Below, one piece after another: positions 434 through 53,003 of a stretch of 64,000 nt of DNA. This DNA is from Amphiscolops sp. MND2022. Lineage: Eukaryota. Where the stretch lies: NCBI GenBank assembly GCA_964187785.1, contig OZ076409.1, positions 73,410,001 through 73,474,000 on the forward strand, given 5' to 3'. Position numbers and translations under genes: made by a program. How positions within the stretch are numbered: position 1 is the stretch's first letter; each line of letters starts with the position of its first letter. Below the pieces are notes generated by a model, which saw only the letters and a program-made list of their open reading frames with translations, was not told where the DNA came from and ran no database searches.

Positions 434-483
434 TGTGATAGCCTTTCAAGTTGGCCTTGTGTCAACTTGGGAAGGCTGTCACA
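434..483 (+). other. Long hairpin type A (GATAGCC...GGCTRTC), ~20-22-bp stem
   Basis: TGTGATAGCCTTTCAAGTTGGC-CTTGT-GTCAACTTGGGAAGGCTGTCACA. Copies lie near 2417, 4401, 11145, 17891, 19884, 21867, 23851, 45042 and 59466. Confidence 0.85.
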
Positions 484-805
484 TCAAAAAACTGTCAACA
501 AAAATACCATTGGTTTATAGGATATTGCTGTCGATGCCTAATTTCGTGATTCGATCATGTTGTATGTTCCTTCCATCAAGTCAGCTAACAATTTGATTCA
601 GTGTTTGATAAGAACCTATGATTTTCATGACAATTTTCGTTTTTTTTTGCTAACAAAAAGTACAAATAAAGGATATAAAACATATTTGTAACCTTTAGGA
701 AGTTTAACTTTACCTTTTTTAACCGTTACCATCACCACCCACCCCCTACGACCTCGCAGTGTCATCATTACAACGCCACATAGTGTTGCGACGTGCACAG
801 TCTGT

Positions 806-825
806 GGGCATGCCGAGGCATGCCC
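806..825. promoter_or_regulatory. Conserved palindrome GGGCATGCCGAGGCATGCCC; p53-family response-element-like and/or hairpin (representative copy)
   Basis: It matches RRRCWWGYYY x2 with zero spacer at 19 of 20 positions and is also a perfect 9-bp inverted repeat with a GA loop. It precedes 34 of 38 junctions, e.g. 2790, 4776, 9530, 25532, 26821, 45297, 49102, 55108, 57286, 59747, 63419. Confidence 0.6.
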
Positions 826-847
826 TTCGACGACGTATGCCGAATAC

Positions 848-877
848 CGCGGGCCTACGCCCGCGCTCCCCGGCTAG
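848..877 (+). mobile_element. Helitron-like 3' terminus: GC-rich hairpin followed by CTAG (representative copy)
   Basis: CGCGGGC-CTAC-GCCCGCG (848-865) lies 8 nt upstream of CTAG (874-877). Different hairpins occupy the same place at 9579-9596, 18316-18333, 39708-39721 and 52980-52993. Confidence 0.5.
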
Positions 878-3800
878 GTGGGCGGGGGTAATTCCCCAAC
901 AAAAATTACGGCCGGCGGGTTGGGTCCTGCCGGACGTCAAATAGCAAAGAATATCTAGTAGGAAACGGCGACACAGAATCGCGATTTTTAAATCTAACCA
1001 CAATTTTTTGGACTTGGAGTGCATGCGGCCCTGAAATGCCCATACGAATCGAAGTTCCTGCTGACGTTAAGCGATTGAAATAATATATAAAAAGTTATGG
1101 CCCATTTTTGGGTCACCGAGAAGGGCAAAATGAGGAAAATTTTAACTAAGTCGCTGATAACTCAAAATGTGTTAATTTTTGGACATTGACTGTGAAACAA
1201 GCTTGGAACCTTCATTTCGTGGCTGTGGCATTGCACTGAACACAAAAGATGTAAAGTTTTTACATTTTTTGAAAATTCGACATTTTTGAATTTTTTTTCA
1301 CTAGTATCAGCACCCCATATGTCAAAAACGCCTCAGAAAAAAATTTTTATTTGCTTTAAATTGGAAACCTTGGTATCCATGGTTTCTGTCGGAACCTACT
1401 CGCAGCCAAACACCCAACAGTTTGCATCCAATGTGAAAAGAAAAATTTTTTCTGGGTCATAAGCGTTTCACAAGGATTTCTCAACTTAGTATTAATTTAC
1501 AAAATGGTCATTTTGAACACAAAATTTTCATCGAGGCTTGTCGGCTATAGGCTTAATGTTCTAGAACGGTCCCACTGGCAACGTAGGAACCATTTATAGT
1601 AATTCAAAGTTATAAAAAAATTTTTTCACCCGTTCTTCAGTCATTTTTCAGACATTCGGAACTTATCTTAGAAAAATTTCGTCTCAAACACCCGTTTTTT
1701 GACAGGTCGAAAAATCAAATTAGGATTTTTAAGCAAAATTATTATTTCTGACGTAACCCATGGGGCCCATGATACTCAAAACAACGATTGACACTGGTAT
1801 CAATGGCTCCAATAACATATGAGTCGCGATAAGACGTTATTTTGAGCAATACGTCTCAATTGAGGTAAACATCTCGCAAGCCTGGGATCACAGTGAAATG
1901 TAAATTCATCAAAAATTTACTCATTTTTGTCAATCACTATGTGCACAGAGTGCGTAGGGTGAGTTCCAGCACTATAATGAGGTTTTTGAAGGCATCGGGT
2001 TGCTCAAGGGGTGGTATGAGACATTTTTGTCCCATATACTACTGTATTTTCCAAATTTTTTAGCCCAATATCTGGGAATAGAAATTTGACAAAATACTTT
2101 CAACTACTTTATTCAGAGGTTACAATATAGATGAACACTGTGGTTGATCAGAAACTTTCATCTCTTTCGTTTTCCGAAATTTTTCTCTTCGCATGTGTTA
2201 CATTTGTAGCAGAAAAAAAGTCGATACTGAAAAATACGCTATTTTGCTAATATAGAATCGCAATGATTGTGCCTAAAAACTCTTTAAACACTTCTAACGC
2301 AACCTTACGCACCCAAAATGATCGAAAATGCTATTCACAATGGTGACATGTGCTCTTTCAACGATCCTGACTGAACAATTTTCGCAAATTATTCAAGTAC
2401 CTGTTAACTGAATCTCGTGATAGCCTTTTAAGTTGGCCTTGTGTCAACTTGGGAAGGCTATCACATCAAAAAATTTGCAACAAAAATACATTTTGTTTAT
2501 TGGAAATGACAGTCGATGTATAATTTTGTGATTCTATACTACCGTTAGTACCTTCCATTAAGTCACCTGACGATTGCATCCAGTCTTTGATAAATACCTA
2601 TGAACTCGAAGTCATATTTATAAATTTTGTGCTAAAAATAAACATAAAAATTATCCAAATTATTTAAAATTGAGTCTTTACCGTTTTTGTTTTTCTTTTT
2701 CTACTGTTATTAGGCCCATCAACTTCCTACAGCCACGCTCTCTGTCATACCGTACAACGCCACATAGTGTTGCGACGTGCACAGTCTGTGGGCATGCCGA
2801 GGCATGCCCTTCGACGACGTATGCCGAATACCGCGGGCCTACGCCCGCGCTCCCCGGCTAGGTGGGCGGGGGTAATTCCCCTTCAAAAAATTCGGCCGGC
2901 GGGTTGGGTCCTGCCGGACGTCAAATAGTGTGAAACATCCAGTAGGAAACGGCGACATAAATCAGCGATTTTAAAATTTAACCGTTAGAATTCGGACTTG
3001 GAGTGCATGCGGCCCCAAAATGCCCATACGAATCGAAGTTCCTGCTGACGTTAAGCGATAAAAACACTTTATAAAAAGTTATGGCCCATTTTACGTTCAC
3101 TTAGAGAGGTAAAATGAGGAAAATTTTAACAAAGTCGCTGATAACTCAAAATGTGTTAATTTTTGGCTTTTGACTGTGAAACAAGCTTAGAACCTTCATT
3201 TCGTGGCTGTGGCATTGCACTGAACACAAAAGATGTAAATTTTTTTAAATTTTTTGAAAATTCGACATTTTTGAATTTTTTTTCACTACTATCAGTACCC
3301 GATATGTCAAAAACACATCAGAAAATTTTTTTTATTTGCTTTAAATTGGAAACCTTGGTATCCATGGTTTCTGTCGGAACCTACTCGCTGCCAAACACCC
3401 AACAGTTTGCATCCAATGTGAATTTAAAATGTTTTTCGAGGTCATAAGGGTCTCACAAGGTTTTCATAACTTAGTATTAAACTACAAACTGGTCATTTTC
3501 AACATAATATCTTTGTCGAGGCAAGTCGGATATAGTCCTATTGCTCACGAACGGTCCTACTGGCAACGTAATAACCATTTATAGAAATGTAAAGTTATAA
3601 AAAAATTTTTCACCCGGTCTTCAGTCATTTTTCAGTCATTCGGAACTTAACTTAGAAAAATTTCGACCAAAATATCCATTTTTTGTCAGGTCGAAAAATC
3701 AAATTCAGGTTTTTAAGCAAAATTATTAACTCTGACGTAACCCATGGGGCCCATGATACTCAAAACAACGATTGACACTGGTATCAATGGCTCCAATAAC

Positions 3801-6800
3801 ATATGAGTCGCGATAAGACGTTATTTTGAGCATTACGTCTCAATTGAGGTAAAGATCTCGCAAGACAGTGATCACTGTGAAATGTGATTTCATCAAAAAT
3901 TTACTCTTTTTTGTCAATCACTATGTGTACAGAATGCGTAGGGTGCGTTTCAGCACTATAATGAGGTTTTTGAAGGCATCGAGTTGCTCAAGGGGTGGTA
4001 TGAGACATTTTTGTCCCATATACTACTGTATTTTCCAAAAATTTTAGCCCAATATCTGGAAATACAAACTTGACAAAATACTTTCAACTACTTTATTCAA
4101 AGGTTACAATATAGATGAACACTGTGGTTGATCAGAAACTTTCATCTCTTTCGTTTTCCGAATTATTTCCCTTCGCATGTGTTACATTCGTAGCAGAAAA
4201 AAAATCGAAACTGAAAAATACGCTATTTTGCTAATATAGAATCGCAATGATTGTGCCTAAAAACTCTTTAAACACTTCTAACGCAACCTTACGCACCCAA
4301 AATGATCGAAAATGCTATTCACAATGGTGACATGTGCTCTTTCTACGATCCTGGCTGGACAAGGTTTGCATATTTTTCAAGTACCTGTTAACTGAATCTC
4401 GTGATAGCCTTTTCAGTTGGCCTTGTGTCAACTTGGGAAGGCTATCACATCAAAAAACCATCAACAAAAATAGTTTTTGTTTATTGGATCTTACAGTCGA
4501 TACTTTTTTTCGTGATTCTATACTACCGTTAGTATATTTCATCAGGTCACCTTACGATTGCATTCAGTCTTTGATAAAAACCTATGAACTCAAAGTCACA
4601 TTTATATATTTTTTTGCCAGAAAATAACATAAAAAATATCTAAAATATATAAAATAGAGTCTTTAACATTTTTACGTTTCAAGTTTTTGCCGTTATTAGG
4701 CCAATCAACGTCCTAGAGCCACATCCTGCCACATACTGTACAACGCCACATAGTGTTGCGACGTGCACAGTCTGTGGGCATGCCGAGGCATGCCCTTCGA
4801 CGACGTATGCCGAATACCGCGGGCCTACGCCCGCGCTCCCCGGCTAGGTGGGCGGGGGTAATTCCCCAACTAAAAAATCGGCCGGCGGGTAGGGTCCTGC
4901 CGGCCGTCCAAAATCAAAAATATACTAGTAGAAAACGGCCGGTCAAACGAGCTATTTTTTTATTTAACCGTTAGAATTTGGGTTTAGATTGCATGCGGCC
5001 ATGAAATGGCCATACGAATCGAAGTTCCTGCTGACGTTTTGCGATTGAAACACTTTATAAAAAGTTATGGCCAATTTGTCAGTCACCTAGAAGGGCAAAA
5101 TGAGGAAAATTTTAACAAAGTCGCTAATAACTCAAAATGTGTTATTTTTTGGACTTTGACTGTGAAACAAGCTTGGAACCTTCATTTCGTGGCTGTGGCA
5201 TTGCACTGAACCCAAAAGATGTAAAGTTTTTACATTTTTTGAAAATTTGACATTTTTGAAATTTTTTTCACTACTATCAGTACCATATATGTCAAAAACA
5301 CCTCAGAAAAAAAATTTTATTTGCTTTAACTTGGAAACCTTGGTATCCATGGTTTCTGTCGGAACCTACTCGCAACCAAACAACCAACAGTTTGCATCCA
5401 ATGTGAAAATAAAAAATTTTTCTGGGTCATAAGCGTTTCACAAGGATTTCTCAACTTAGTATTAATTTACAAAATGGTCATTTTGAACACAATATTTTCA
5501 TCGAGGCTTGTCGGCTATAGCCTTAATGTTCTAGAACGGTCCCACTGGCAACGTAGGAACCATTTATAGTAATAGAAAGTTTAAAAAAATATTTTCACCC
5601 TGTCTTCAGTCATTTTTCAGTCATTCGGAACTTAACTTAGAAAAATTTCGACCAAAATACCCATTTTTTGACAGATCGAAAATTCAAATTCAACTTTTTA
5701 AGCAAAATTAGTAACTCTGACGTAACCAGTGGGGCTCATGATACTCAAAAACACGATTGGGACTGGTACCAATGGCTCCAATATCATATGAGCCGCGATA
5801 AGACGTTATTTTGAGCAATACGTCTCAATTGAGGGAAACATCTCGCAAGCCTGGGATCACAGTTAAAAGTGATTTCGTCAAAAATTTACTCTTTTTCGTC
5901 AATCACTATGTACACAGAGTGCGTAGGGTGAGTTTCAGCACTATAATGCGGTTTTTGAAGGAATCGGTCTGCTCAAGGGGTGGTATGAGACATTTTTTTT
6001 GCATGTAGTACTATATTTCTCAAAACTTTTAGCCCAATATCTCGAAAAGCTCACTTCGCAAATTACTTTCAGTTACTCTATTCGAAGCTTAGAATTTATA
6101 TGAACACTGTGGTTGATCAGAAACTCTTGACTATTTTGTTTTTGGAAAAAAACTGCCTTGCATGTGTTACATTAGTGGCAGGAAAAATACCAGTAGCTCC
6201 AAAAATCACAATTTTGGACGGACAGACCTGCAATGATGCAAAGCAAAAACGTTTCAACAACTTCTGGCGCCACTTTTTTTACCCAAGAGGTTCGAAATTA
6301 CTATTAACAATGCTGACATTCGCTATAAATAAGATCGAGGTCAATTTACTAACACTTAGGTTATACATTTATATCTGAGAAACCATTCTTTGTCAGGTCG
6401 CAATTTTAAATTTAGTTTGGGAAGCAATACTTTTCACTCTGAAGCAAACCGTTGGGCCCAAATTACTCAAAAACTACAAAAAGACTGTCACCATATGCCC
6501 TAATAGCATATGAGATTCGACCGTATGTTTTTAACACAAAAACTCTCATCCGAAGTAAACATGTTGAAAGCCTTGAATCACCGTGAGAAATGATTTCATC
6601 AAAAAATATTCCTTTTTCGTCAATCTTTATCTACACAGAACACGTTGTGTCATTTTCAGCCGTGAAATGAGCTTCTACCGTAATATGGGTTGCTCAAGGT
6701 GTTGTATAAGACAAAAACTTCCTCTTTTCTACTATCTTCTTCAAATATTTCAACCCTTTGTCACAAGAAGTTAATATTCAAAATCTCTTTGAAATGTTTC

Positions 6801-7081
6801 TTTAGGTTGGGGTGAAGTGTTAGAACAATAATTATGATCGAAGAATGATAGTATTGGTGTTTGGACCATGTCCGGATGAACAAATTGCAAAATCATGAAA
6901 AATTTCTTACCATTTTTGGTCATTTTGTCAGTACTAAAAATGTTAGCTGAAAAAGAATTTTTTGATGGCACCATTGGATTCCTCTCAAAAAGTTAGCTAT
7001 ATGAACTGTGTAATAACCCCGTATCTTTTCAATTTAAATAATTTTAAAAAGCAAACTTTTTTGACTAAAATCCTAAAAATG

Positions 7082-8425
7082 ATACCATTTCCTAAAAAAT
7101 TTCAAATGCCCCCCATTTGACGTATAAGAATAGCACAGAAAACTATCACATACCGATCGACTCTACTTCCATTGTAGATTACCAGAATTTTGTTTAGAAC
7201 AATTTTTGACGGATGCAAAAAAAATTTAAACCCTCCAAAAAAGGGCCAAAATTACACGAAAAAATTGACCTTAAAATTTTAAAATGTCGAAAAATCATCA
7301 AAACCACAGCTTCTTGGGGTTCTATCAACTACACGTGGTCCACAGAGTATGTTAAAACAAGTTTTACCCGTATTTGAGCAATATGTGAAAAAGCCGACTT
7401 TTTTGGGAATGAAAAACATACTATTTCCTAAAAAATTTCAAACGCACCCCATTTGACGTATAAGAATAGCACAGAAAACTATCACATACCGATCGACTCT
7501 ACTTCCATTGTAGGTTACCAGAATCTTGTTTAGAACAATTGTTGACGGATGCAAAAAAAAATTAAACCCTCCAAAAATGGGCCAAAATTACACGAAAAAA
7601 TTGACTTAAAATTTTAAAATGTCAAAAAATCATCAAAACCACAGCTTCTTGGGGTTCTATCAACTCCACGTGGTCCACAGAGTATGCTAAAACAGGTTTT
7701 ACATGTTTCTGAGCTATATGTGAAAAAACCGACATTTTGGGGAAGAAAAACATACCATTTCTTAAAAAATTTCAAATGCACGCCATTTGCCGTATGAGAA
7801 TAGCACAGAAAACTATCACATACCGATCAACTCTACTTCTATTGTAGATTATCAGATTTTTGTTTAGAACAAATTTTTATGGATATAAAAAATTTTTAAA
7901 CCCTCCAAAAATGAGCCAAAATAACACGAAAAAATGGACCCTAAATTTTTAAAATGTCAAAAAATTATCCAAACCACAGCTTCTTGGGGTTCTATCAGCT
8001 CCACGTGGTCCACAGAGTATGCTAAAACAGGTTTTGCCCGTTTTTGAGCAGTATATGAAAAAGCCGACATTTTTGGGGAAGAAAAACATACCATTTCCTA
8101 AATAATTTCAAATGCAGGCAATTTGCCATATGAGAGTAGCACAGAAAACTATCACACACCGATCAACTCTACTTCTTTTGTAGATTATCAGAATTATGTT
8201 TAGAGTAAAGTTTTATGGATATGAAAAATTTTTATACCCTCCAAAAATGGGCCAAAATGACACGAAAAAATTGACCTCAAATTTTTAAAATGTCAAAAAA
8301 TTATCCAAACCACAGCGTCTTGGCGTTCTATCAACTCCAAATGACCTTCAGAGTATACCAAACCAGGTATTGCCAATCTTTTGAGCAATATTTAAAAACA
8401 CCGACTATTTGGCAAGAACACCATA
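7082..8425 (+). repeat. Internal tandem repeat, 4 x ~335 bp
   Basis: ATAC(C/T)ATTTC(C/T)TAAA starts at 7082, 7418, 7752 and 8088. Copies share GAATAGCACAGAAAACTATCACA and CACGTGGTCCACAG; the fourth copy is more diverged. Confidence 0.92.
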
Positions 8426-11400
8426 ATATGTTCCATATAAGAAGTGAATCATTCCACATATATACCCGGTCTAATATTTCCAAATTAGCGATAACATTTA
8501 TACATGATGGTTTTTGAAAGTGAGCTTCATAAGAGGTTGAGATGTAATAATACGTAAATGGACCCTAAGTTTCATTGAAATCTCAATGGAATACGTCCAA
8601 TCAACTTCAATCCTAACTATTATATAACAAAAAACACTTGAGTACATTCCATCTCCCCATCGGGGGAGATGAGAATGTACTTTTCAAAAGCCAAAAACTT
8701 CGAATTTTAAATCTTTTGTAACATTGTATGTAACTGTTGAAACGATGAACGAATGAAAATGCTTCTAGTACCTTCATCAATTTTTGCTTCAGCTCCTATT
8801 TCTGCAGAACAAAACCAAAAGACACACTTACAGCAGTTAAGTTCGATTGTATAACTCAGTGAGTAAAGGTATGACTGAGGAAGTTCACAAGTTGTTTCAA
8901 AAGTTTCCGGCCTTCCAAAATCATGAAACGTCCACACAACCAAGATAGCAAGTGAAAGAATGCTGAATGCACCTTATTAGATGAGATAAATAATGTGTGG
9001 AACTTGCCATTATCTCAAGATGACGTTGATTTATGATCTTTTAAGGATAGTTCGATATGTGACCACAATAGTGGAAAACTTATTACTATTTGAAGAACAC
9101 CGTGGAAAGCGTTCAGAAAGGACAGTATATTTGTTTCGAGCATGCATGCGTGTGTTCCTTTGGTGACGTTAGCTTAGTGTACATGACGGAGGTATTCGAG
9201 AGATTATGATAGAGTTTACTCACAAGTCTTTGTTTTTTTAAACTTTCTATGCCGTTGAGTACATTCGTAAGGTACATCCATCCCCTTCTCTGGGAATGTA
9301 CGTTTGCCAAATGACTGTCATCCAAAATTCGTAATCCGGACGAGTTTAACTACATAAACATGTGATGAGCGTTTTCAATTCACAACCGAATAACATTTTT
9401 TTCTCGAAAATGATGATGGTTTTGATTTTGATGTCTTCTACTTTTATCATCATGCAAACGACCTTACCATGTCTCTCTTCTGTCGTCATTTGTACAACGC
9501 CACATAGCGTTCCGACGCCCACCGTCTGTGGGCATGCCGAGGCATGCCCTTCGACGACGTATGCCAAATGAGCCATACCCGCACTCTGGAGTGCGGTAGC
9601 GGCTAGGTGGGCGGGGGTAATTCCCCTTCAAAAAATTCGGCCGGCGGGTTGGGTCCTGCCGGACGTCAAATAGTGTGAAACATCCAGTAGGAAACGGCGA
9701 CATAAATCAGCGATTTTGAAATTTAACCGTTAGAATTCGGACTTGGAGTGCATGCGGCCCCAAAATGCCCATACGAATCGAAGTTCCTGCTGACGTTAAG
9801 CGATAAAAACACTTTATAAAAAGTTATGGCCCAATTTACGTTCACTTAGAGAGGTAAAATGAGGAAAATTTTAACAAAGTTGCTGATAACTCAAAATACA
9901 ATAATTTTTGGCTTTTGACTGTGAAACAAGCTTGGAACCTTCATTTCGTGGCTGTGGCATTGCACTGAACACAAAAGATGTAAAGTTTTCACATTTTTTG
10001 AAAATTCGACATTTTTGAATTTTTTTTCACTACTATCAGTACACTATATATCAAAAACACCTCTGAAAAATTTTTTTTTTGCTTAAATTTAGAAACCTCG
10101 GTATCCATGGTTTCCGTCAGTACCTACTCGCTGCCAAACACTCAACAGTTTGCATCCAATGTGAAAATAAAATTTTTTTCGAGGTCTTAGGTGTTTCACA
10201 AGGATTTCTCAACTTAGTATCAATTTACAAATTGGTCATTTTGAACACATTATTTTCATCGAAGCGTGTCATATACCGCCCTAATGCTCACGAACGGGCC
10301 TACTGGCAACGTTGGAACCATTTATAGTAATAAAAAGTTTTAAAAAAATTTTTTCACCCCGTCTTCAGTCATTTTACACACTTTCGGAACTTAACTTAGA
10401 AAAATTTCAACCAAAAACCCATTTTTTGTCAAGTCGAAAATTCAAATTCAGCTTTTTAATCAAAATAAATAAATCTGACATAACCAGTGGGGCCCATGAA
10501 ACTCAAAACCACGATTGAGACTGGTATCAATGGCTCCAATAACATTTGAGTCGCGATAAGACGCTATTTTGAGCAAAACATCTCAATTGAGGTAAAGATC
10601 TCGCAAGCCAGCGATCACTGTGAAATGTGATTTCATCAAAAATTTACTCTTTTTTGTCAATCACTATGTGCACAGAATGCGTAGGGTGCGTTTCAGCACT
10701 ATAATGAGGTTTTTGAAGGCATCGAGTTGCTCAAGGGGTGGTATGAGACATTTTTGTCCCATATACTACTGTAGTTTCCAAAATTTTTACCCCAATATCT
10801 GGAAATACAAACTTGACAAAATACTTTCAACTACTTTATTCAAAGGTTACAATATAGATGAACACTGTGGTTGATAAGAAACTTTCATCTCTTTCGTTTT
10901 CGGAAATATTTCCGTTCGCATGTGTTACATTCATAGCAGAAAAAAAAATCGAAACTGAAAAATACGCTATTTTGCTGATATAGAATCGCAATGATTGTGC
11001 CTAAAAACTCTTTAAACACTTCTAACGCAACCTTACGCACACAAAATGATCGAAAATGCTATTCACAATGGTGACATGTGCTCTTTCTACGATCCTGGCT
11101 GGACAAGGTTTGCATATTTTTCAAGTACCTGTCAGCTAAATCTTGTGATAGCCTTTTCAGTTGGCCTTGTGTCAACTTGGGAAGGCTATCACATCAAAAA
11201 ACTATCAACAAAAATAATTTTTGTTTATTGGATCTTACAGTCGATACTTTTTTTCGTGATTCTATACTACCGTTAGTATATTTCATCAGGTCACCTTACG
11301 ATTGCATTCAGTTTTGATAAAAACCTATGAACTCAAAGTCACATTTATATATTTTTTTGCCAGAAAATAACATCAAAAATATCTAAAATATATAAAATAG

Positions 11401-24100: not shown

Positions 24101-24287
24101 ATTGAGTCTTTAACGTTTGTATTTTTTGTTTTTCTACTGTTGTTAGGCCCATGAACATCTTACAGCCACGCTGTCTGTCATTAGTACAACGCCACATAGT
24201 GTTGCGACGTCCACCGTCCGTGGGCATGCCGAGGCATGCCCTTCGACGACGTATGCCAAATATACGCGTTAGCGCGGTAGCAGCTAG

Positions 24288-42200: not shown

Positions 42201-43975
42201 ACTGTTACCAACGCCCACCGTCCGTGGGCATGCCGAGGCATGCCCTTCGACGACGTATGCCAAATACCTTCCAGCAACGCTCGCGCTCCCCTGCTAGGTG
42301 CCGGGATTTTCTATTCGACAAGTTTGCGCGCCTTGGGGAGGGTCCCTTTGCGCGCTTTAAGATCCAGGTGTTTCCAACTCCTAAACGGGCATGTGATTTC
42401 GACGATCTCCTAAACTAGCCATACGATTTGGCTGAAATTTGGCACACGTACCCCCCTTGGCACGGTGAAGATGATTTCCTACTGACGTTTTTCCCGCTAA
42501 ACATTTTTTGTTGACCAAAATAACGGTTTTTGGGGTAAAATTTTCAACTTTTTTTAAATTTCATCTTATATCTCGCCACGGGTACACGCTAGCGCTTCAA
42601 AACCTTGCTGACGAAAGTTTGCAAACTGTCTCAGGAATGCGGTGTGAAATTTTCAGCTCAATCGGACTTAAACTCGAGGAGATATAGCGTTTTTCCGGAG
42701 CGGGGGGGTTTCATTTTTCTAACGGTCCAGCTTATCTTTGCCATTTTTTCGAAAATGCACTCGCCTAAAGGCCTCCCCTGGCCGGTTTTATTCCCAGCAA
42801 AACCATTTGGCCCTAAATACGGAGTTTCAGCGTTCCAGCATTCCCGGGCGAAAAGTTGTGGGACTTAGAAAAGTTCAAAAATTTTCAAAAAAAATTTTTT
42901 CCGTTATTTGGGCCCTCAAAGTGGGGGAAAAGACCCCCCAACCAGTAAAGCAAGTGAATGCATGTGGAAAGCCCTTGTTTAGACGAGAAAAATGCCGTTT
43001 AGAACGTCTTTTTATCTTAACTTGACATTGACTTTTGTTGTTTTGAAGGTGACCGTTAGATACGGAAAATTGATGTTTTGAGTATTTATCCCATCTGAAA
43101 GCCATTGAGATACAACATGTTTTGCCCAAAACGTTTTTCATTGCAGGTTCGCTGTCCATTATCACCCTTTGGTGTCTTTTCACGTAATTTTCGTTTCTAT
43201 AATAACAATTTTTTGTGTATTTATTCATTTTTTTCTCATCAAATAACTTGAAACAGTTGAGTACATTCCATCTCCCTTCCCGGGGGAGATGAGAATGTAC
43301 TCGCTAAAGGTCAAGAACTACGGTCTATATCTTCCACAACACAAAAGGGATTGCAAATGGTTTCAGTTTGTCGCAGAAAACTTCTTTTTGCCCTCTGTGA
43401 CTCGACAAAATGAACGTTTCTTACTTACTTTGAAACTCAGCATACCACAACTCATCTCTAACGTCAGCGCCCCCCTACTTGCATCAACGCCCACTAAAAA
43501 ATCAAAAAACGTAAGTCTCTTTGAAAACAAATCGGAATACGTCCAGTCAACCCCAGAGCTGGTAAATTGCCGTTGTCTAGTGCAGCAACGCCATTTAGAG
43601 TCTTTTTACCCACTTTGATACCGTTTTGATACCGTCTTATTCATCCGATAGCACAAAACTGTTGCGTACATTCCATCTCCCCCTTTGTGGGGGAGATGAG
43701 AATGTACCCGCTAAATGACACGCACAATGGCGCAATTTTATTTTTATACAATGTTTTCTAGGCTGTCGCGCAAGCCCACTAATATTTAGACTGGTTTCTT
43801 TCTCTTTCACTCCAAACTTTCCCTACTAACCACCTTACACACCATCAGCTCAACGTTACTTCTGTAACGTCAACGCCACATACTCGCATCAACGCCCACC
43901 GTCCGTGGGCATGCCGAGGCATGCCCTTCGACGACGTATGCCCATTAGCGCCACAGGGCGCCCAATTTTTTCTAG
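24288..43975 (+). mobile_element. Block of 15 units of the ~1.28-kb family (several interleaved subfamilies; last unit is a 1678-bp chimera)
   Basis: Junction spacings are 1268-1313 bp for 14 units and 1678 bp for one. The shared core is CCTAAAGGCCTCCCCTGGCC...CCATTTGGCCCTAAATACGGAGTTTCAGCGTTCCAGCATT. Mobility is inferred. Confidence 0.6.
25281..25324 (+). other. Long hairpin type B (GAGTACATT...AATGTACTC) with a single-base bulge (representative copy)
   Basis: GAGTACATTCCATCTCCC-loop-GGGAGATGAGAATGTACTC. There is one per ~1.28-kb unit, ~300-310 bp upstream of CTAG; it also occurs near 8640, 15385, 54666 and 61695. Confidence 0.88.
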
Positions 43976-45366
43976 GTGGTCGGGTATTTTTTTTGCTCGT
44001 ATATGACGTTTGCGAGGCTTTGGGGAGGGCCCCGTGCCGAGCCTGTACCGAAATTTACCACATACCAGAAGTGTCCGATTTAATCGAGATCTCAAAAACT
44101 AACCGTTAGAATTCTCTGAAATTTTGCATGTGGCCCCTAATCAATGAGTAATGAAAAAGTGTAGGAGTGACGGTTGCTGAAAAACTTGTCTTTGTTGCAC
44201 TTTTTGCGCAATTTTTGTCGCATTGTTGCGTTTTTTATGTCATTTTCGACTTTTCAAGCAAAAAACTCATAGATACTTTGTTCCTAGCGTATCAAGTGTG
44301 GAGCACGAAAAGTTGCAGCATCTTCCATTACGTATGCTGAGAAAATTTGGTTGCCCTCGGATTACCCCCCACAGAGATAGAGGGGTGCATCCGGGTATTT
44401 TTGACCCCTAAATTTGGGAAATTGCTAATTTTCGTAAAAAAGCCGTAGATTTAGCGCGTGCCTACCCTGCTGACGATTTGTTAGGCATTTTGAGATAGAT
44501 CCGATGACATGCGTTGAGTTCACCCCCATCACCCCCTTGACCGGAAATGAACATTTTTGTGCACTTTCAGACCGGAAGTCTCCATTTTCACTGGTAAGGA
44601 GGCATTTTACGAGCAACTAGCAGGAACTCAAAAGTGAAGTATAACCTGGGGTCAATTTAATGACCACGTGTTGTCCAGTCATGGGTTTCGCTATGACCGG
44701 AAATGGGCTTAAAACCCCCTTTTAGTAGTATTTTTATCAATTTTCCTTGTGCTTGGTCCACATTCAAGTTGCGTAAGTCAGTTGAACCAGTGAGAGCATA
44801 AAATATATATTCACTGCGTAGTCGTAACTGACACTGCCAGATACCGGAAGTAACCCCCTGTGACCGGAAGAGGTCAATTTTGACCGGAAATGGTCCAAAA
44901 AGTAGCGTAAATGCAGTTTTCAATGCTTTTTAAGGTCAAGTTATTAGTATTTTTCAATTTGAATGCTTTTTTCCACGCAAAAAGCTAACATCGTTGCATG
45001 TTTTGCTGAAGATCGGAAAAGTGATCACCATTATCACCCCCGATAGCCTTTCAAGTTGACCTTTGGTCAATCTTGAAGGCTATCTGTTCTGAAAACGAAA
45101 AATAGTGGAATTTTGTTTCCTCCTTTCTCTTGATATTTTTCCTTCAAGTCAATTTGTCAAAAGAAAGACATTTGTTCAACTGAGTGATCTGAATCCTGTC
45201 CAGAGGTGTCACCCGGACGAATACCATTTCAAGCTGAAGTACACAAATCAGGGTAGTATTAGACATCACACACTCCTACCAACTCCCACCGTCTGTGGGC
45301 ATGCCGAGGCATGCCCTTCGACGACGTATGCCAAATAGCGCCACAGGGCGCCCACACTTTTGCTAG
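43976..45366 (+). mobile_element. 1391-bp unit with ACCGGAAR motif cluster and type A hairpin
   Basis: Bounded by CTAGGTG at 43972 and 45363. The interior is homologous to the units starting at 53004, 55182 and 58431. Confidence 0.6.
44540..44891 (+). promoter_or_regulatory. Cluster of six ETS-type motifs (ACCGGAAR, mostly ACCGGAART)
   Basis: Motifs at 44540, 44571, 44696, 44843, 44863 and 44883. Homologous clusters lie at ~53588-53940, ~55766-56117 and ~58986-59335. ACCGGAAGT is the established class I ETS consensus; binding here is unproven. Confidence 0.45.
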
Positions 45367-48300
45367 GTGCCGGGATTTCCATTCGATAAGGAATTCTGCG
45401 CGTGTGGGTAGGGCCCCTGGCGCGCTCCTGTGTTTTTGGTTTTCCTACTCCTAAATAGGCCCCCTGAATTCCGGGATCTCCTAAACTATCCATACGATTT
45501 GGCTGAAATTTGGCACACAGCCCCCTTGGAACATTGTAAGAACAAATCCCTACTGACGTTTTGCCCGCTAAACATTTTTTGTTGGTCAAAATTGCGATTT
45601 TCCGACAAAATTTTTGACTTTTTTTCACGTTATAGTCTATATCTCGTCCCAGGATTACGCTAGCGGCCCAAAACCTCAGTCGGAAAAGTTTGCAAACTGT
45701 CTCAGGAATGAGGTGTGAAATTTTCAGCCCAATCGGACTTAAACTCAGCGACTTAGAGTGTTTTTTAGGTGCATTTTTTGACTTTTTTTGCGTTTGCTGA
45801 TTTATCTCTGCCGTTTTTTGCCCAGTTTTTTTTTGAGACACTCTCCTAAAGACCTCCCCTGGCCGGTTTTCTTCCCAGCAAAACCATTTGGCCCTAAATA
45901 CGAAGTTTCAGCGTTCTAGCATTCCCGGGCGAAAAGTTGTGGGACTTAGAAAATTTTTTTGAAAACGCAAAATGTGTAAAGTCAACTTCAGGCCTCCCAA
46001 AGTCAAGGAACTTCCACACAACTAGGATTGCAAGTGGATGCATGTGGAAAGTACTGGGATAGACGAGAAAAATGAGCTATAGAACGACTCTGTACCTTAA
46101 CCTGACGTTGACTTATGATGTTTTGAATGTGTGCTTGCTAAGGGGTCTGAAAAGCAATTATTAAAAATGGAAACTACGTCTTATTGAAAACTCACCGGAT
46201 TCAGTGCAATCGACCCCAGAGCGTGCTCAATTGAAGTTTCCTGTTCTTTCAACACCATTCAAGGTCTTTTGACTAATGTTGAAAAAATTGATACCGTATT
46301 ATTCATCCGAGAGCACGAAACAGTTGAGTACATTCCATCTCCCTTTCGGGGGAGATGAGAATGTACTCGCTAAAGTCCAGGTACTACAGCCCATATTTGT
46401 TTTTATGCGGCGCTCTTTGTACTAGTGTGTACACGTATTAATCTTTTAACTGAATTTTCTTTTGTCTGCACTTTGAGTTTGACTTGACATATACTGAAAG
46501 TTTTTGTCCTCACAACATACACATGACCAACGTCAACGCCCCATTCTTGCATCAACGCCCACCGTCCGTGGGCATGCCGAGGCATGCCCTTCGACGACGT
46601 ATGCCAAAGATATACCCCAAGCGCGTTAGCCTAGGTGCCGGTGTTTTTCACGACAGAGAAAGTTGCGCGCTTTGGGTAGGGTCCCGGCGCGCTTCAGGGG
46701 CTCATTTTTACAACCTGATAGGACACATGCTGAAATGACCGATCTCCTAAACTACCCTACCAATTTTGCTGAAATTTGGCACGAAGCTTCCTTGGAACAT
46801 TCTAAGAACAAATCCCTACTGGCGTTTTGCTGGGAAAAATCAAAAAGTTGGTCAAAAATGCGATTTTCCGACAAAATTTTGGGGTAAAATTTTTTTGAAA
46901 CGTTATATCTCGCCACAGGGTCACGCTAGCGCCTCGCAACCTATGATCATGTTTTGTAGGGCGTTGTCTGTAGAACACGTATGCCAAATTTGGTGGCAAT
47001 CGGACTTAAACTCAGGGAGATATAGCGATTTTTTAGGTGCTTTTTTTGACATTTTTTGCATTTGCTGATTTATCTCTGCCATTTTTGCCCAAAATTTTTT
47101 TGAGACCCTCTCCTAAAGACCTCCCCTGGCCGGTTTACCTCCCAAAAAAACCATTTGGCCCTAAATACGAAGTTTCAGCGTTCTAGCATTCCCGGGCAAA
47201 AAGTTGTGGGACTTAGAAAAATTTTTTCGAAAACGCAAAATGTGTAAAGTCAACTTCAGGCCTCTCAAAGTCAAAGAACATCCACACAACTAGTATTGCA
47301 AGTGAATGCATGTGGAAAGTACTCAAATAGACGAGGAAAATGAGCTATAGAACGACTTTCTATCTTAACTTGACGTTGACTTATGACAATTTTAGTGTGA
47401 GCTTGCTATATGGTGAAAAATTCAAAAGATGAAGATCGAAACTAAGTCTCATCCAAAACTCATCGGAATGCGTTCAATGCATCCCAAAGCGGATTAATTC
47501 CAGGTGTCTAGTGCAGCAACACCATTCAAGACCATTTGACCCATTTTTATAAGTTTTGACAACGTATTATTCATCCGAGAGCACGAAACAGTTGAGTACA
47601 TTCCATCTCCCTTTTGGGGGAGATGAGAATGTACTCGCTAAAGTCCAGGTACTACAGCCCATATTTGTTTTTATGCGACGCTCTCATGCTAGTGCGCATA
47701 CTTTTTATTCGTTTAACTGAATTTTCTTCTGTCTGCACTTTGACTTTGACTTGACGTATACTGAACGTTTTGTCCTTACAACATGCACATTACTAACGTC
47801 AACGCCCCATCCTTGCATCAACGCCCACCGTCCGTGGGCATGCCGAGGCATGCCCTTCGACGACGTATACCAAGATATACATAAGCGCGGTAGCCGCTAG
47901 GTGCCGGGATTTCTATTCGTTCAGGGAAGATGCGCGCTGTTGGGGAGGGTCCCGGGCGCGCTCAGGTGTTTTGTGTCTTTCAACTTTCCAGAACGGGTCT
48001 GCTGGGAACGATCTCGAAAACTATCCATACGATTTGGCTGAAATTTTGCATGTGGCTCCCAATGGACATTGTAAGAACAAATCCCTACTGGCGTTTTGCT
48101 GGGAAAAATCAAAATGTTGGTCAAAAATGCGATTTTCCGACAAAATTTTTGACTTTTTTTCTTTGACAGTCAAAATCTCGCCACAGGGTCACGCTAGCTA
48201 CCCTAAACCTTGCTAATTATAATTTGCAATCTGTCTCAGGAATGCGGTGTGAAATTTTCAGGTCAATCGGACTTAAACTCAGCGACTTAGAGCGATTTTT

Positions 48301-51300
48301 TAGGTGCATTTTTTGACATTTTTTGCATTTGCTGATTTATCTTTGCCGTTTTTTGCCCAGATTTTTTTCTAGACCCTCTCCTAAAGGCCTCCCCTCGCCG
48401 GTTTACCTCCCAGAAAAACCATTTGGCCCTAAATACGGAGTTTCAGCGTTCTAGCATTCCCGGGCGAAAAGTTGTGGGACTTAGAATAATTTTTTTGGAA
48501 ACGCAAAATGTGTAAAGTCAACTTCAGGCCTCCCAAAGTCAAAGAACTTCCACACAACTAGTATTGCAAGTGGATGCATGTGGAAAGTACTGGGATAGAC
48601 GAGAAAAATGAGCTATAGAACGACTCTGTAGCTTAACTTGACGTTGACTTATGACCTTTTGAGTGTGAGCTTGCTATGCGAGAAAAAATGCAAAACATGA
48701 AAATGGAAGCAAAGTATCGTCGAAAACCCATCATAAGATGTTCAACTCATCCTAGAGCGGTTTATTTACAGTTGTTTAGTAGAGCAACACCATTCATGAT
48801 CATGTGACCCATTTTTATGGGGAATGAGATTGTCTTATTCATCCGATAGCCCAAAGCAGTTGAGTACATTCCATCTCACCTCCGTGTGAGATGAGAATGT
48901 ACTCGCTAAAGTCCAGGTACTACAGCCCATATTGGTTTTATGCGCCGCTCTGTATGCAAATGAGCATACTTGACATTTTTTTAGCTGATATTTTTTTAAA
49001 CTGCACTTTGACTCTGACCTGACATACTGAATATTTAGTCCTTATAACATACACATAATTAACGTCAACGCCCCATCCTTGCATCAACGCCCACCGTCCG
49101 TGGGCATGCCGAGGCATGCCCTTCGACGACGCGCACCAAAATATTCCCCGAGCGCGTTAGCCTAGGTGCCAAAACCCAATGGTTTGCCAAACACTTCGAG
49201 GGCGGGGTAGGGCCCCCAGCCCGAGTCAAAAGTCGAAGACTAACAACGTAAGGCCAATACTAAAACCTCCTATCGATCTTGGAAACGGCCCGTCAGATTT
49301 GGCTCAAATTTTGCATGCGGCTTCCCCTAGCGATTCTAAGAACTTTTCCCTACTGCCATTTTGCCCGGAAAATTTTTTTTGTTGACTTATACACTATTTT
49401 AGGTGCCAAAAATGGCGTTTTTTTGAAAAAAAATTTTTTAAGAGCCAATATCTCGTTCCACAGGCCCCGGATCAAAAAGTGTACAATTGTTCGCATGCTA
49501 GGCACTTCATGAACTGTCCGTAGACAAATTTTCGTCCAGATCGGATAAAAATTGACTGAGTAATAGAAAACTTTGAAAGTGATTTTGACGACTTTTTTCG
49601 AAAACCTAGTCTATCTCTGCCGTTTTTTGCCCAGATTTTTTTCCAGGACCTCTCCTAAAGGCCTCCCCTGGCCGGTTTACCTCCCAAAAAAACCATTTGG
49701 CCCTTTTGCCGCACTTTCAGCGTTCCAGGATTCCCCGGGTAAAAGATAAATGACTTAGAATTTTTTCAAAAATTTTTCAAATTTTTTTTTTCAACTTCAG
49801 GCCTCCCAAAGTCAAGAAACGTCCACACAACTAGTATTGCAAGTGAATGCATGTGGAAAGTGCTCGAATAGACGAGAAAAATGAGCTATTATAAACCTCT
49901 GTAGCTCAACCTGACGTTGACTTATGACAATTTTAGTGTGAGCTTGCTATATGGTAAAAAATTCAAAAATTGAAAATCGAAGTTAAGTCTCATCCAAAAC
50001 TCATCGGAATACGTTCAATCCACCCTAAAGCGGTTTAATTCCTGTTACTAAGTGCAGCAACACCATTCAAGGTCATTTAATCCATATTTATAATTTTTGA
50101 CACCGTCTTATCCATTTGAAAGTTCGAAACAGTTGAGTACATTCCATCTCCCCTACGTGGGAGATGGTAATGTACTCGCAAAAAGCCAAGGTCCTACCGC
50201 CCTATTCTATCCGGCGTTGCATCAGAAATGCAGTAGCATGAGCTCCAGGTGGTTTGCAGTGGCCTTTACGTATGTTGTGACTATGTATTACAATTCTAAC
50301 TCTGTTACTAAACATGAAAAAATTGTTTCAATCCCAAAAATTTTCATTTCAACTTTAGTATGTCACCAATAAACATATATGCATCTTTCCTACTACAACC
50401 ACCCTACCACCCGGCCCCTTGTCCACTGTTCAACCGTGCACGTCTAGGTGCCAAAACCCAATGGTTTGCCAAAGTTTCGAGGGCGGGGTAGGGCCCCCAG
50501 CCCGAGTCAAAAGTCGAAGACTAACAACGTAAGGCCAATACTAAAACCTCCTATCGATCTTGGAAACGGCCCGTCAGATTTGGCTCAAATTTTGCATGCG
50601 GCTTCCCCTAGCAATTCTAAGAACTTTTCCCTACTGCCATTTTGCCCGGAAAATTTTTTTTGTTGACTTATACACTATTTTAGGTGCCGAAAATGGCGTT
50701 TTTTTGGAAAAAATTTTTTTAAGAGCCAATATCTCGTTCCACAGGCCCCGGATCAAAAAGTGTACAATTGTTCGCACGTTAGGCACTTCATGAACTGTCC
50801 GTAGACAAATTTTCGTCCAGATCGGATTAAAATTGACTGAGTAATAGAAAACTTTGAAAGTGATTTTGACGACATTTTTCGAAAACCTAGTCTATCTCTG
50901 CCGTTTTTTGCCCAGATTTTTTTCCAGGACCTCTCCTAAAGACCTCCCCTGGCCGGTTTACCTCCCAGAAAAACCATTTGGCCCTTTTGCCGCAGTTTCA
51001 GCGTTCCAGGATTCCTCGGGTAAAAGATAAATGACTTAGAATTTTTCAAAAAAAATTCAAAAAAAAAATTTTTTTTCTTCAAACCTTCCAAAGTCAAGAA
51101 ACGTCCACACAACTAGTATTGCAAGTGAATGCATGTGGAAAGTGCTCGAATAGACGAGAAAAATGAGCTATTATAAACCTCTGTAGCTCAACCTGACGTT
51201 GACTTATGACAATTTTAGTGTGAGCTTCCTATGTGAGAAAAAATTTCAAAAATTGAAAATCGAGCTAAGTCTCATCCAAAACTCATCGGAATACGTTCAA

Positions 51301-53003
51301 TCCACCCTAAAGCGGTTTAATTCCAGTTACTAAGTGCAGCAACACCATTCAAGGTCATTTAACCCATATTTATAATTTTTGACACCGTCTTATCCATTTG
51401 AAAGTTCGAAACAGTTGAGTACATTCCATCTCCCCTACGTGGGAGATGGTAATGTACTCGCAAAAAGCCAAGGTCCTACCGCCCTATTCTATCCGGCGTT
51501 GCATCAGAAATGCAGTAGCATGAGCTCCAGGTTGTTTGCAGTAGCCTTTACGTATGTTGTGACTATGTATTACAATTCTAACTCTGTTACTAAACATTAA
51601 AAAATTGTTTCAATCTCAATTTTTTTTTCAACTTTAGTATGTCACCAATAAACATATATGCATCTTTCCTACTACAACCACCCTACCACCCGGCCCCTTG
51701 TCCACTGTTCAACCGTGCACGTCTAGGTGGTCGTTAGCATGGGATTTTCTTTATGAGCGTAGTCCACTTTTTTTAGGCCGGGGTAGGGTCCCGGGCCGTT
51801 ACCAATTTCTTACGGAGGAAAAATGTGAAAATCTGCGAGTTTAAAAAATTGGCCCGTACGATTTGGCTGAAAATTGGCATACAGCATCGTCTTGGTAAAC
51901 AAATGACTTTGTCCTAGTGACATTTTGCCCAGAAAATTCAAAAAGTTGGTCAAATTGAAAATTTTTTGATCGTCTAAGGCTAAAATTTGACTTTTTCGCT
52001 TTTTTTGGTCAATTTCCTCAGAACTGGTTAATTTTGGTGAAGTAAGTCATAAGAGGTTATAAGGTCTGCAAATAGCCATCAATTGGCTTGCATAATCAGA
52101 TTTTGTCAAAAGTGTTTAGTTTTTTCAAAATTTCACACTTTTTTTCATTTCAGTGTTTTTTGATACAATTTATTGAATTTTTACTAAGTTCCACTAAATA
52201 TTTTTAAAATGTTTTTAAAAAACCTTTTTTTGCACGTTTTTGATGTTTTTTGCTCTCCCATATAGGTTTTCGCATACGGGGAACCTGAATCTGACAACGA
52301 AATAATTTTATTCCGCAGTTCAACTTACGCCATTTTTAATATTGAAAAATCACTCATTTTCAATCTAACGAGTAAAAATATCAGAATTTAAAAACCTAAA
52401 GTTGAGTTTAAGGCGACTTACAGGTAGAAACAAATGCTCAGAAACAAACTGATTTCTTGTATTAGCTAAAGAAAGCCTTTAAAATTCTTTTTACTTTCTT
52501 TAAATCAAAATTCGACACTTTTCATGAAATTTGTCAGTGGAAAAAATTTATCATTTTTTAAATTAAAAACTTGCTTTGTTGGTCATTTCCGTTAGTCATT
52601 AGTAGCTGTGTAATGCTCCAAAGCCTTTCAAGTTCTTTTGACCCTATTTGAAAATTTTTGATACTGCATAATCAATCCGAGAGAACGAAACAGTTGTGTA
52701 CATTCCATCTCCCTCTTGGGGGAGATGAGAATGTACTTCCTAAAGTCCAGGTACTACAGATCATATTTGGTTTTATGCGACGCCCTCTATGCTAGTGCAT
52801 ATAAATACAAGTTGTTTGGCTGGATTTTGCTTCTGACTTGACGTATACTGTACGTTTGGTACTGACAATACCCATCATTTACATAACAAACGTCAACGCC
52901 ACATACCCTTACCAACGCCCATAGTCCGTAGGCATGCCGAGGCATGCCTTTCGACGACGCGCGCCAAACACAAGCGCGCCCGCACTTTTGCGGTAGCAGC
53001 TAG
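45367..53003 (+). mobile_element. Six divergent ~1.27-kb units
   Basis: Spacings are 1268, 1266, 1265, 1282, 1279 and 1277. Units 49166-50447 and 50448-51726 are a near-identical pair lacking the palindrome. Unit 51727-53003 has a largely unrelated interior. Confidence 0.6.

What the first reader, a model, noticed from the sequence alone, without database searches (positions are those of the whole stretch)
848..53003. Sequence-unrelated GC hairpins just before CTAG: a Helitron-like 3' end with a non-canonical GTG 5' end
Seen: CGCGGGC-CTAC-GCCCGCG (848), CCGCACTC-TG-GAGTGCGG (9579), CCGCGGT-CACT-ACCGCGG (18316), GCGCC-ACAG-GGCGC (39708) and CCGCA-CTTT-TGCGG (52980) each end 6-10 nt before CTAG. 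Established: Helitron 3' ends are a GC-rich hairpin ~10 nt before CTRR, but they begin with TC and insert at A^T. Here the next unit always starts GTG, and some ends (e.g. before 25592) lack a strong hairpin. Inference: this may be a variant rolling-circle family with a different nick or target rule.
Basis: partly seen in the sequence, partly recalled or inferred. Interest (0 to 1): 0.7.

Follow-up and report, generated by a model that had tools for sequence, protein, structure and literature searches.

The report
Self-stacking Helitron-like element array
The whole window is a chain of related, gene-free DNA units joined head to tail at the same seven letters (CTAGGTG) in shuffled order, likely rolling-circle (Helitron-like) jumping elements that would insert again and again at their own joint instead of at ordinary host sites, and the end hairpin first noticed is real but present at only about a quarter of the end types.

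Summary
The five hairpins are there, perfect, 6-10 nt before CTAG, but they are the best cases. Only 8 of 29 distinct junction ends fold below -4 kcal/mol (1 of 85 internal CTAGs), and the proposed 40-nt shuffle test fails (3 of 29 vs 3 of 90). Three of the five share an outer stem. The real signal is larger: 38 same-strand junctions at an invariant CTAGGTG tile all 64 kb. A fixed palindrome lies 58-73 nt upstream (34 of 38) and a hairpin with co-varying arms 42-59 nt downstream (36 of 38). Homology between copies stops at this heptamer (21 of 21 pairs with identical starts share only 0-3 nt upstream), so the junction is the unit boundary. The cut lies somewhere inside the heptamer; a 'GTG start' is not established. 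No transposase, solo copy, TIR or A^T target was found, and no whole genome was available. Best reading (0.55): non-autonomous HUH rolling-circle elements that insert at their own end-start junction. Main rival (0.2): a Crypton-type recombinase.

The parts
1..64000 (+). Head-to-tail array filling the window: 37 complete units (1070-4761 nt) and two partial ones, all in one orientation, non-coding
874..880 (+). First of 38 invariant CTAGGTG junction heptamers. The others start at 2858, 4844, 9603, 11587, 16348, 18340, 20324, 22305, 24284, 25592, 26880, 28163, 29476, 30746, 32032, 33324, 34592, 35875, 37165, 38455, 39732, 41014, 42294, 43972, 45363, 46631, 47897, 49162, 50444, 51723, 53000, 55178, 57357, 58427, 59815, 62193, 63479
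   Evidence: boundary mapped to the heptamer
848..865 (+). Terminal hairpin, 7-bp stem, 8 nt before CTAG; the same end recurs before 2858, 4844, 11587, 20324, 22305
9579..9596 (+). Terminal hairpin, 8-bp stem, 6 nt before CTAG (also before 16348)
18316..18333 (+). Terminal hairpin, 7-bp stem, same outer stem and similar tail as at 9579
39708..39721 (+). Terminal hairpin, 5-bp stem; the same hairpin ends the units before 43972 and 45363, the latter with an unrelated body
52980..52993 (+). Terminal hairpin, 5-bp stem, same outer stem and tail as at 18316
806..834 (+). Example of the near-invariant 3' block (palindrome GGGCATGC-CGAG-GCATGCCC followed by TTCGACGAC), starting 58-73 nt before the heptamer at 34 of 38 junctions; absent before 50444, 51723, 58427, 62193
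908..937 (+). Example of the 5' hairpin: loop motif GG(T/G)NGGG(T/C/G)CC 42-46 nt after the C of CTAG at 34 of 38 junctions (51 and 59 nt at two more; absent after 53000 and 55178); the arms differ between subfamilies but stay paired
25719..25740 (+). Example of a conserved body motif 122-149 nt after the junction (27 of 38 starts, up to 4 mismatches)
26569..26613 (+). Example of a long internal palindrome (about 45 nt); 25 copies matched, 22 of them 292-312 nt before the next junction
878..24287 (+). Block of the 2-kb family, with two 4.76-kb chimeric units (4848-9606, 11591-16351; 98% alike) that hold a 336-nt tandem repeat
24288..49165 (+). Block of the 1.27-1.31-kb family in shuffled subfamily order; includes one 1678-nt chimera (42298-43975) and one unrelated 1391-nt unit (43976-45366)
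49166..63482 (+). Block of the most divergent units, including four that lack the 3' block and two 2.18-kb chimeras (53004-57360) that lack the 5' loop motif

Best explanation
The window is an array of non-coding units whose boundaries fall exactly at one invariant heptamer, CTAGGTG, and whose order is shuffled, and they are likely non-autonomous rolling-circle (HUH, Helitron-like) elements that would insert one at a time into the end-start junction of a resident copy. Shown: 38 same-strand junctions; homology between copies stops at the heptamer; near-identical units sit between unrelated neighbours; a paired hairpin with a conserved loop lies at a fixed distance after the heptamer; a fixed palindrome and a variable, sometimes hairpinned 30-45-nt tail lie before it; there are no TIRs and no gene. 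Inferred: (1) a transposase encoded elsewhere binds the 5' hairpin and nicks the + strand inside CTAGGTG; (2) the displaced strand is cut at the next heptamer and closed into a circle carrying one junction; (3) the circle's junction exchanges strands with a chromosomal junction, as the HUH relaxase TrwC integrates DNA into a resident oriT; (4) because every unit in an array is followed by a complete nick site, the classic terminator hairpin is dispensable and decays; (5) read-through of a junction followed by deletion gives the chimeric 1.7-4.8-kb units. If the enzyme keeps the Helitron habit of cutting 5' of a T, the true ends would be TG...CTAGG or TAGGTG...C, not GTG...CTAG. Local duplication has also acted, mainly in the first 24 kb.
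For: Boundary: in the 1.3-kb family (20 junctions), similarity is correlated between every pair of adjacent segments (rho 0.36-0.82) except across the heptamer (rho 0.00, p = 0.46). A unit's start predicts its own end 1.2 kb away (rho 0.44, p = 0.0005) but an end does not predict the start 7 nt further on (rho -0.03; n = 18). Of 406 junction pairs after 24 kb, 21 share 20 nt or more downstream and all 21 share only 0-3 nt upstream; 3 share 20 nt or more upstream and share 0, 0 and 4 nt downstream. Order within units 10-24 is random (p = 0.57). Single-strand-type signals: own arms of the 5' hairpin fold better than swapped arms (-8.6 vs -6.0 kcal/mol, 13 types, permutation p = 5e-5), and terminal hairpins change their apical pairs while staying paired. 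The 5' motif is tightly spaced (42-46 nt in 34 of 38) while 3' tails vary and 4 of 38 ends lack even the 3' block. This matches Helraiser, where the left end is required, the right end is loose, and the hairpin is not needed to form or transpose circles (PMC4778049, passages). CTAG with a hairpin 6-10 nt upstream is the HLE1 right end (PMC11417382, passages). [quoted passage not shown]
Against: No transposase is in the window (0 Pfam hits among 106 of 154 ORFs of 75 aa or more), so the enzyme class rests on anatomy. 21 of 29 distinct ends have no strong terminal hairpin, and the 40-nt test is not significant. No TC start and no A^T target can be read at any of 38 junctions. Two units lack the 5' motif yet are bounded by exact heptamers. 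One start subfamily folds poorly there (-2 to -3 kcal/mol). Over the whole window neighbours are more alike than chance (p = 0.0002) and ends do predict next starts (rho 0.28; rho 0.30 for units 10-36), so local duplication also contributed. A 7-bp invariant core equally fits a tyrosine recombinase (6-8-bp spacer; PMC3212892, passages).
Confidence: 0.55

Rival explanations
1. Non-autonomous Crypton-type (tyrosine recombinase) elements. Units excise as circles by recombination between two heptamers and re-integrate at another heptamer. CTA or TAG inside it would be the crossover core shared with a (CTA)n microsatellite target, and 'CTAG' would only look like a Helitron end.
For: The invariant core is 7 bp, and tyrosine-recombinase sites have a 6-8-bp spacer; Cryptons lack TIRs, carry 4-6-bp terminal direct repeats and are proposed to move as circles (PMC3212892, passages). 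Some CryptonV families target microsatellites (PMC8869645, one sentence). Unchecked scan notes report a recombinase element inside (CTA)n repeats in this genome (e1-8792193, e1-9528649). Precise re-use of one site is natural for this chemistry.
Against: There are no conserved arms beside the core: positions -6 to -1 and +8 to +13 vary and show no fixed dyad. No (CTA)n or (TAG)n tract lies at any junction; the window has only two 9-nt runs, both internal. Paired-but-changing hairpins 6-10 nt before CTAG are the Helitron pattern. The conserved 3' block matched no other window of the scan, including windows that hold the recombinase element, though that look-up is weak.
Confidence: 0.2
2. Canonical-type Helitron concatemers made by rolling-circle over-replication, later scrambled by recombination or gene conversion at the shared blocks; no targeting of the junction is needed.
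For: Tandem Helitron arrays are reported in plants, bats, Drosophila and Xenopus (PMC5876387, PMC5148889, PMC12001565, PMC11934779; passages). Adjacent near-twins exist (units 29/30 at 96.5%, 32/33 at 92.8%) and families cluster along the window.
Against: Concatemers give runs of the same unit, but the best partner is adjacent for only 8 of 37 units. Homologous exchange should break linkage in the long shared blocks and not in a 7-nt core, yet linkage survives across the 28-nt 3' block (rho 0.36) and the 5' motif (rho 0.82) and vanishes only at the heptamer. The start is not TC.
Confidence: 0.12
3. A complex satellite evolving only by unequal crossing-over, with the motifs kept as protein-binding or chromatin signals.
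For: The array fills 64 kb without genes or other insertions. The first 24 kb hold a two-unit duplication (units 2-3 and 4-5). Unit lengths are strongly conserved within families.
Against: After 24 kb, none of 406 junction pairs is identical on both sides. Units with largely unalignable bodies (31, 34, 35) keep exact junctions. Unequal crossing-over gives no reason for breakpoints to sit in one heptamer.
Confidence: 0.09
4. Assembly artefact: separate circles or dispersed repeats chained together by the assembler.
For: The whole genome and long reads could not be examined.
Against: A 7-nt shared core is too short to drive overlaps. A 151-nt record of run X1 spans a 3' block, a tail, the heptamer and a start, though a circle junction would look the same.
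Confidence: 0.04

Closest known systems
HLE1 / canonical Helitrons (Helraiser; PMC4778049, PMC5876387, PMC11417382, passages read)
   Same: CTAG at the right end with a hairpin 6-10 nt upstream in some copies; no TIRs; conserved left end and loose, interchangeable right ends; precise end-to-start junctions; chimeric units.
   Different: The junction reads CTAGGTG, not CTAG-TC; no A^T host flank in 64 kb; the terminal hairpin is missing from 21 of 29 end types; there is an extra fixed palindrome upstream and a fixed-distance hairpin downstream; no RepHel partner identified.
Tandem Helitron arrays and self-insertions (plant centromeres and bats as cited in PMC5876387 and PMC11934779; Fusarium PMC5148889; Xenopus PMC12001565; passages read; the plant paper itself was not held)
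   Same: Head-to-tail, same-strand copies in long runs.
   Different: The passages read describe concatemers of one element, minisatellites or occasional nested insertions. Here different subfamilies and unrelated bodies alternate in shuffled order with every joint exact.
HLE2 / Helentron / Helitron2, including Fusarium FoHeli3-5 (PMC11417382, PMC5148889, passages)
   Same: Hairpins near both ends; starts other than TC exist (FoHeli3-5 start TGCCT, and 22 of 38 junctions here read TGCC or TGGC after CTAGG).
   Different: No short terminal inverted repeats (longest 9 nt against 11 in controls); no T^T target.
Replitrons (PMC10288648, passages)
   Same: HUH elements with a short motif directly repeated at both ends, orientation-specific insertion and a subterminal hairpin; a shared heptamer at each joint would read as such a direct repeat.
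   Different: Reported from plants, algae and protists, not animals; no Rep found here; fuzzy ends and variable duplications are not seen.
Crypton / CryptonV (PMC3212892 passages; PMC8869645 one sentence; the Repbase report was not seen)
   Same: No TIRs, short shared core at both ends, proposed circular intermediate, site-specific families.
   Different: No recombinase in the window, no microsatellite at the joints, hairpin-plus-CTAG ends.
TrwC relaxase site-specific integration into oriT (PMC3264647, abstract only)
   Same: Mechanistic precedent: an HUH-helicase protein integrates DNA into a resident copy of its own nick-plus-binding site.
   Different: Bacterial conjugation; no sequence relationship is claimed.

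Membership tests
HLE1 (canonical Helitron) | 3' end CTRR | tested here: met
   CTAG at 38 of 38 junctions, provided the cut follows CTAG
HLE1 (canonical Helitron) | Hairpin about 10 nt before CTRR | tested here: inconclusive
   8 of 29 distinct ends; significant at 30 nt, not at 40 nt
HLE1 (canonical Helitron) | 5' TC | tested here: not met
   No cut position within CTAGGTG gives a TC start
HLE1 (canonical Helitron) | Insertion between A and T without duplication | tested here: inconclusive
   No junction in the array has A^T; no solo copy was available
HLE1 (canonical Helitron) | RepHel transposase in an autonomous partner with the same ends | not testable with these tools
   No genome held; no domain in window ORFs
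HLE2 (Helentron/Helitron2) | Short asymmetric terminal inverted repeats of about 12-16 nt | tested here: not met
   Longest own-unit inverted match 9 nt, mean 6.5, against control mean 6.6 and maximum 11 (37 units)
HLE2 (Helentron/Helitron2) | Insertion at T^T | tested here: not met
   No TT in the junction heptamer; solo copies not seen
Replitron | Short direct repeat at both termini | tested here: inconclusive
   The heptamer bounds each unit on both sides but occurs once per joint; no longer direct repeat beyond it (4-8 nt)
Replitron | Replitron HUH Rep | not testable with these tools
   No coding sequence
Crypton / CryptonV | 4-6-bp terminal direct repeats, no TIRs | tested here: inconclusive
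   Compatible: a 7-nt shared core and no TIRs; needs solo copies
Crypton / CryptonV | Microsatellite target at the ends | tested here: not met
   No (CTA)n or (TAG)n run at any of 38 junctions; the outer ends of the array lie outside the window
Crypton / CryptonV | Tyrosine recombinase in an autonomous partner with the same ends | not testable with these tools
   No genome held
TIR (DDE) transposon with CTAG target duplication | Terminal inverted repeats | tested here: not met
Telomeric non-LTR array or small-RNA gene array | Poly(A) joints, telomeric repeats or an RNA gene in each unit | tested here: not met
   No A12 run or TTAGGG repeats; 0 Rfam matches at gathering score; 0 tRNAs

The most novel reading that the evidence does not exclude
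An animal genome holds an integron-like cassette chain. A family of mobile units, driven by an HUH enzyme outside HLE1/HLE2 or by a Crypton-type recombinase, uses its own 7-nt junction as its only target. It thereby builds and reshuffles a long gene-free chromosomal domain one cassette at a time, with the junction serving as origin, terminator and landing pad.
Probability: 0.35. Interest if true: 0.75.

Novelty: new variant of a known kind. Interest (0 to 1): 0.5.

Why it matters
Known eukaryotic Helitrons insert at a dinucleotide, and their tandem arrays are explained as over-replicated concatemers. An element that lands only on its own junction would be harmless to genes by construction, would explain how long mixed arrays of mobile elements arise in heterochromatin, and would point to a eukaryotic enzyme that integrates DNA at a short defined site. 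TC/CTRR-based and TIR-based Helitron finders would miss it. The claim stays moderate until the enzyme and a solo copy or array edge are found.

Tried and rejected
Whole-genome search for solo copies and the autonomous partner: no genome is held. Sequencing runs: one holder listed, X1, with 0.10 of the words; no RNA holder listed. On window 25450-26990, 11 records were laid; on 55050-63640, 36 records. The visible junction-spanning records are of array type: one joins an end like that before 35875 to a start like that after 25592/28163, and one carries a tail variant not in the window up to the heptamer at 57357. No host flank was seen at a junction, but depth was 2-5 and the tables were cut (3 and 27 loose ends not shown), so this says nothing on solo copies. 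DNA scans for the 3' block: 0 in metagenome contigs, 0 in viral contigs. A looser pattern gave 2 metagenome loci and 1 prokaryote locus; all three are 63-64% GC, match only the 18-20-nt palindrome and lack the junction, so they were rejected as chance. Coding remnants: 2 ORFs of 150 aa or more; 0 Pfam hits among 106 of 154 ORFs of 75 aa or more, 48 near-duplicates dropped. RNA genes: 0 at gathering score over the whole window; three sub-threshold snoRNA matches in 42-64 kb; 0 tRNAs. The two minus-strand CTAGGTG matches lie inside the two 4.76-kb units without flanking motifs and were not counted as junctions. A minus-strand reading (units ending CACCTAG) was considered, since CTAG is palindromic. 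It is not excluded, but the hairpin-to-CTAG spacing fits the + strand. LTR/TRIM, telomeric non-LTR and TIR-element readings were rejected. Literature: ten searches found no description of this array; the search for four window motifs returned three papers on unrelated subjects (listing only). Repbase and Dfam consensi are not available here and no supplements were read, so an existing Repbase or Dfam family with these ends cannot be excluded. Scan look-ups near the window, by sequence and among relatives were empty.
Full report
Observation. The five hairpins are at the stated coordinates, with perfect arms, 6-10 nt before CTAG. They belong to a larger pattern: CTAGGTG occurs 38 times on the + strand among 145 CTAGs, about 1.8 expected. 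These sites cut the whole window into 37 complete units of 1070-4761 nt and two partial ones. The window is 39.8% GC and has only two ORFs of 150 aa or more. It has no Pfam match in 106 of 154 ORFs of 75 aa or more (48 near-duplicates dropped), no Rfam match at gathering score and no tRNA. Unchecked scan notes place the genome in an acoel worm; I did not test this.

The terminal hairpin is a minority trait. Among 29 distinct junction ends, 8 fold below -4 kcal/mol in the last 30 nt against 1 of 85 internal CTAGs. With dinucleotide shuffles, z < -2 holds for 5 of 29 vs 3 of 85 (Mann-Whitney on z p = 0.13) and 6 of 29 vs 2 of 85 in a second run (Fisher p = 0.003). A perfect stem of 5 bp or more is present in 8 of 29 end types, 15 of 38 copies. 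The hairpins are not all unrelated: those at 9579, 18316 and 52980 share the outer stem and tail and differ in the apical pairs. Many hairpin-less ends keep the right arm and tail only (sequence), which I read as decay of an ancestral hairpin (inference).

What is conserved. Upstream, the palindrome GGGCATGC-CGAG-GCATGCCC followed by TTCGACGAC starts 58-73 nt before the heptamer at 34 of 38 junctions; that zone has z < -2 in 23 of 26 distinct sequences vs 6 of 89 controls. Downstream, a loop motif GG(T/G)NGGG(T/C/G)CC lies 42-46 nt after the C of CTAG at 34 junctions and at 51 and 59 nt at two more, and is absent at two. Its arms differ between subfamilies and co-vary: own arms fold at -8.6 vs -6.0 kcal/mol for swapped arms over 13 types (p = 5e-5), with one type folding poorly. 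A body motif follows at 122-149 nt in 27 of 38 starts. A palindrome of about 45 nt lies 292-312 nt before the junction in 22 of its 25 matched copies. From recall only, the body motif resembles one near the 5' end of animal non-autonomous Helitrons; I could not test this.

Where the boundary is. In the 1.3-kb family (20 junctions), pairwise similarity is correlated between all adjacent segments (rho 0.36-0.82), including across both conserved blocks, but not across the heptamer (rho 0.00, p = 0.46). A unit's start predicts its own end (rho 0.44, p = 0.0005) but an end does not predict the next start (rho -0.03; n = 18). Of 406 junction pairs after 24 kb, 21 have identical starts over 20 nt or more, and these share only 0-3 nt upstream of CTAG; 3 have identical ends and share 0, 0 and 4 nt after GTG. 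Units 12 and 18 are 98.6% identical but their flanks are 69% and 81% alike. So the heptamer is the unit boundary, and no junction after 24 kb is a copy of another. Against a pure one-by-one model, families cluster over the whole window (adjacent similarity p = 0.0002), ends predict next starts when the 2-kb block is included (rho 0.28), and units 2-3 and 4-5 look like a block duplication. Within units 10-24 the order is random (p = 0.57). An array cannot show where in the heptamer the cut lies, so 'GTG 5' end' is one of eight possible registers.

Outside evidence. No genome is held. One low-depth run, X1, holds reads nearly identical to the window. Its visible junction records are of array type, and the tables were cut, so solo copies are untested. 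Collection scans found nothing related. The scan's index has no look-alike of this DNA.

Mechanism. Helraiser needs its left end, tolerates loss of the right end, forms circles with an exact CTAG-TC junction without the hairpin, and transposes from such circles without it (PMC4778049, passages; PMC5876387, passages). The anatomy here fits that logic: a rigid start with a fixed-distance hairpin, loose and swappable ends, and chimeric units. I infer that a transposase encoded elsewhere nicks inside CTAGGTG, releases a unit circle at the next heptamer, and joins it into another junction, as TrwC integrates DNA into a resident oriT (PMC3264647, abstract only). In an array every end is followed by a full nick site, which would free the terminator hairpin to decay. 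In the Helraiser passages the left-end and target cuts both fall 5' of a T; if that holds here, the ends are TG...CTAGG or TAGGTG...C. Starts other than TC are known in Fusarium HLE2 elements (PMC5148889, passages). All enzymatic steps are inferred. Confidence 0.55.

Rivals. A Crypton-type recombinase (0.2) fits a 7-bp core, the absence of TIRs and circle movement (PMC3212892, passages). Some CryptonV target microsatellites (PMC8869645, one sentence), and unchecked notes report a (CTA)n-targeting recombinase element in this genome. Against it, there are no conserved arms beside the core and no microsatellite at any joint. Scrambled concatemers (0.12) and a plain satellite (0.09) do not explain why linkage breaks only in a 7-nt core. 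An assembly artefact (0.04) is unlikely.

Membership. It works like a Helitron, but it cannot be filed as HLE1 (no TC start) or HLE2 (no TIRs: longest 9 nt against 11 in controls; definitions from PMC11417382, passages). Replitron (PMC10288648, passages) and Crypton membership need the enzyme. Passages of PMC13085455 (Paramecium Helitrons that appear to target telomeric repeats) show that target-specific, strand-biased Helitrons exist. Passages of PMC13404089, PMC11934779 (part 1 of 6 and passages) and PMC12001565 describe Helitron-derived DNA in centromeric, subtelomeric or tandem settings, without exact shuffled junctions in what I read. PMC5753468 (passages) only lists the Crypton groups. 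The plant centromeric Helitron paper was not held. No supplements were read, and Repbase and Dfam were not available, so a catalogued family with these ends cannot be excluded.

Verdict. Observation partly confirmed, interpretation partly supported. The hairpin-CTAG motif as such is ordinary and inconstant. The notable fact is an exact, shuffled, single-strand-oriented cassette chain with one invariant joint. Ten literature searches found no description of it. New variant of a known kind; interest 0.5.

Noticed in passing
window 1-64000: No gene, no other recognisable transposon insertion and no inverted unit in 64 kb, which suggests a young or protected domain such as heterochromatin or a centromere region.
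   Followed up: partly
window, all units: The eight unit length classes (1070, 1283, 1390, 1678, 1984, 2178, 2378, 4760 nt) lie near multiples of about 99 nt (post hoc p about 0.012; not significant for periods of 150-250). Units 29-31 keep about 1280 nt despite unalignable parts.
   Followed up: partly
window 26569-26613 and 24 other places, e.g. 61692-61741: A long internal palindrome of about 45 nt, usually 292-312 nt before the junction, kept even in units that lack the 3' block.
   Followed up: partly
window 7082-8410 and 13821-15155: Four copies of a 336-nt repeat (89% matches) inside each 4.76-kb unit.
   Followed up: no
window 42298-43975, 53004-57360, 59819-62196, 4848-9606: Chimeric units: the 5' part of one family is joined to the 3' part of another without an internal junction, as expected from a dimer that lost its joint.
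   Followed up: partly
window, base before each junction CTAG: The base before CTAG is G, C or T in all 29 distinct ends and never A; the base after GTG is always G or C in 28 distinct starts.
   Followed up: no
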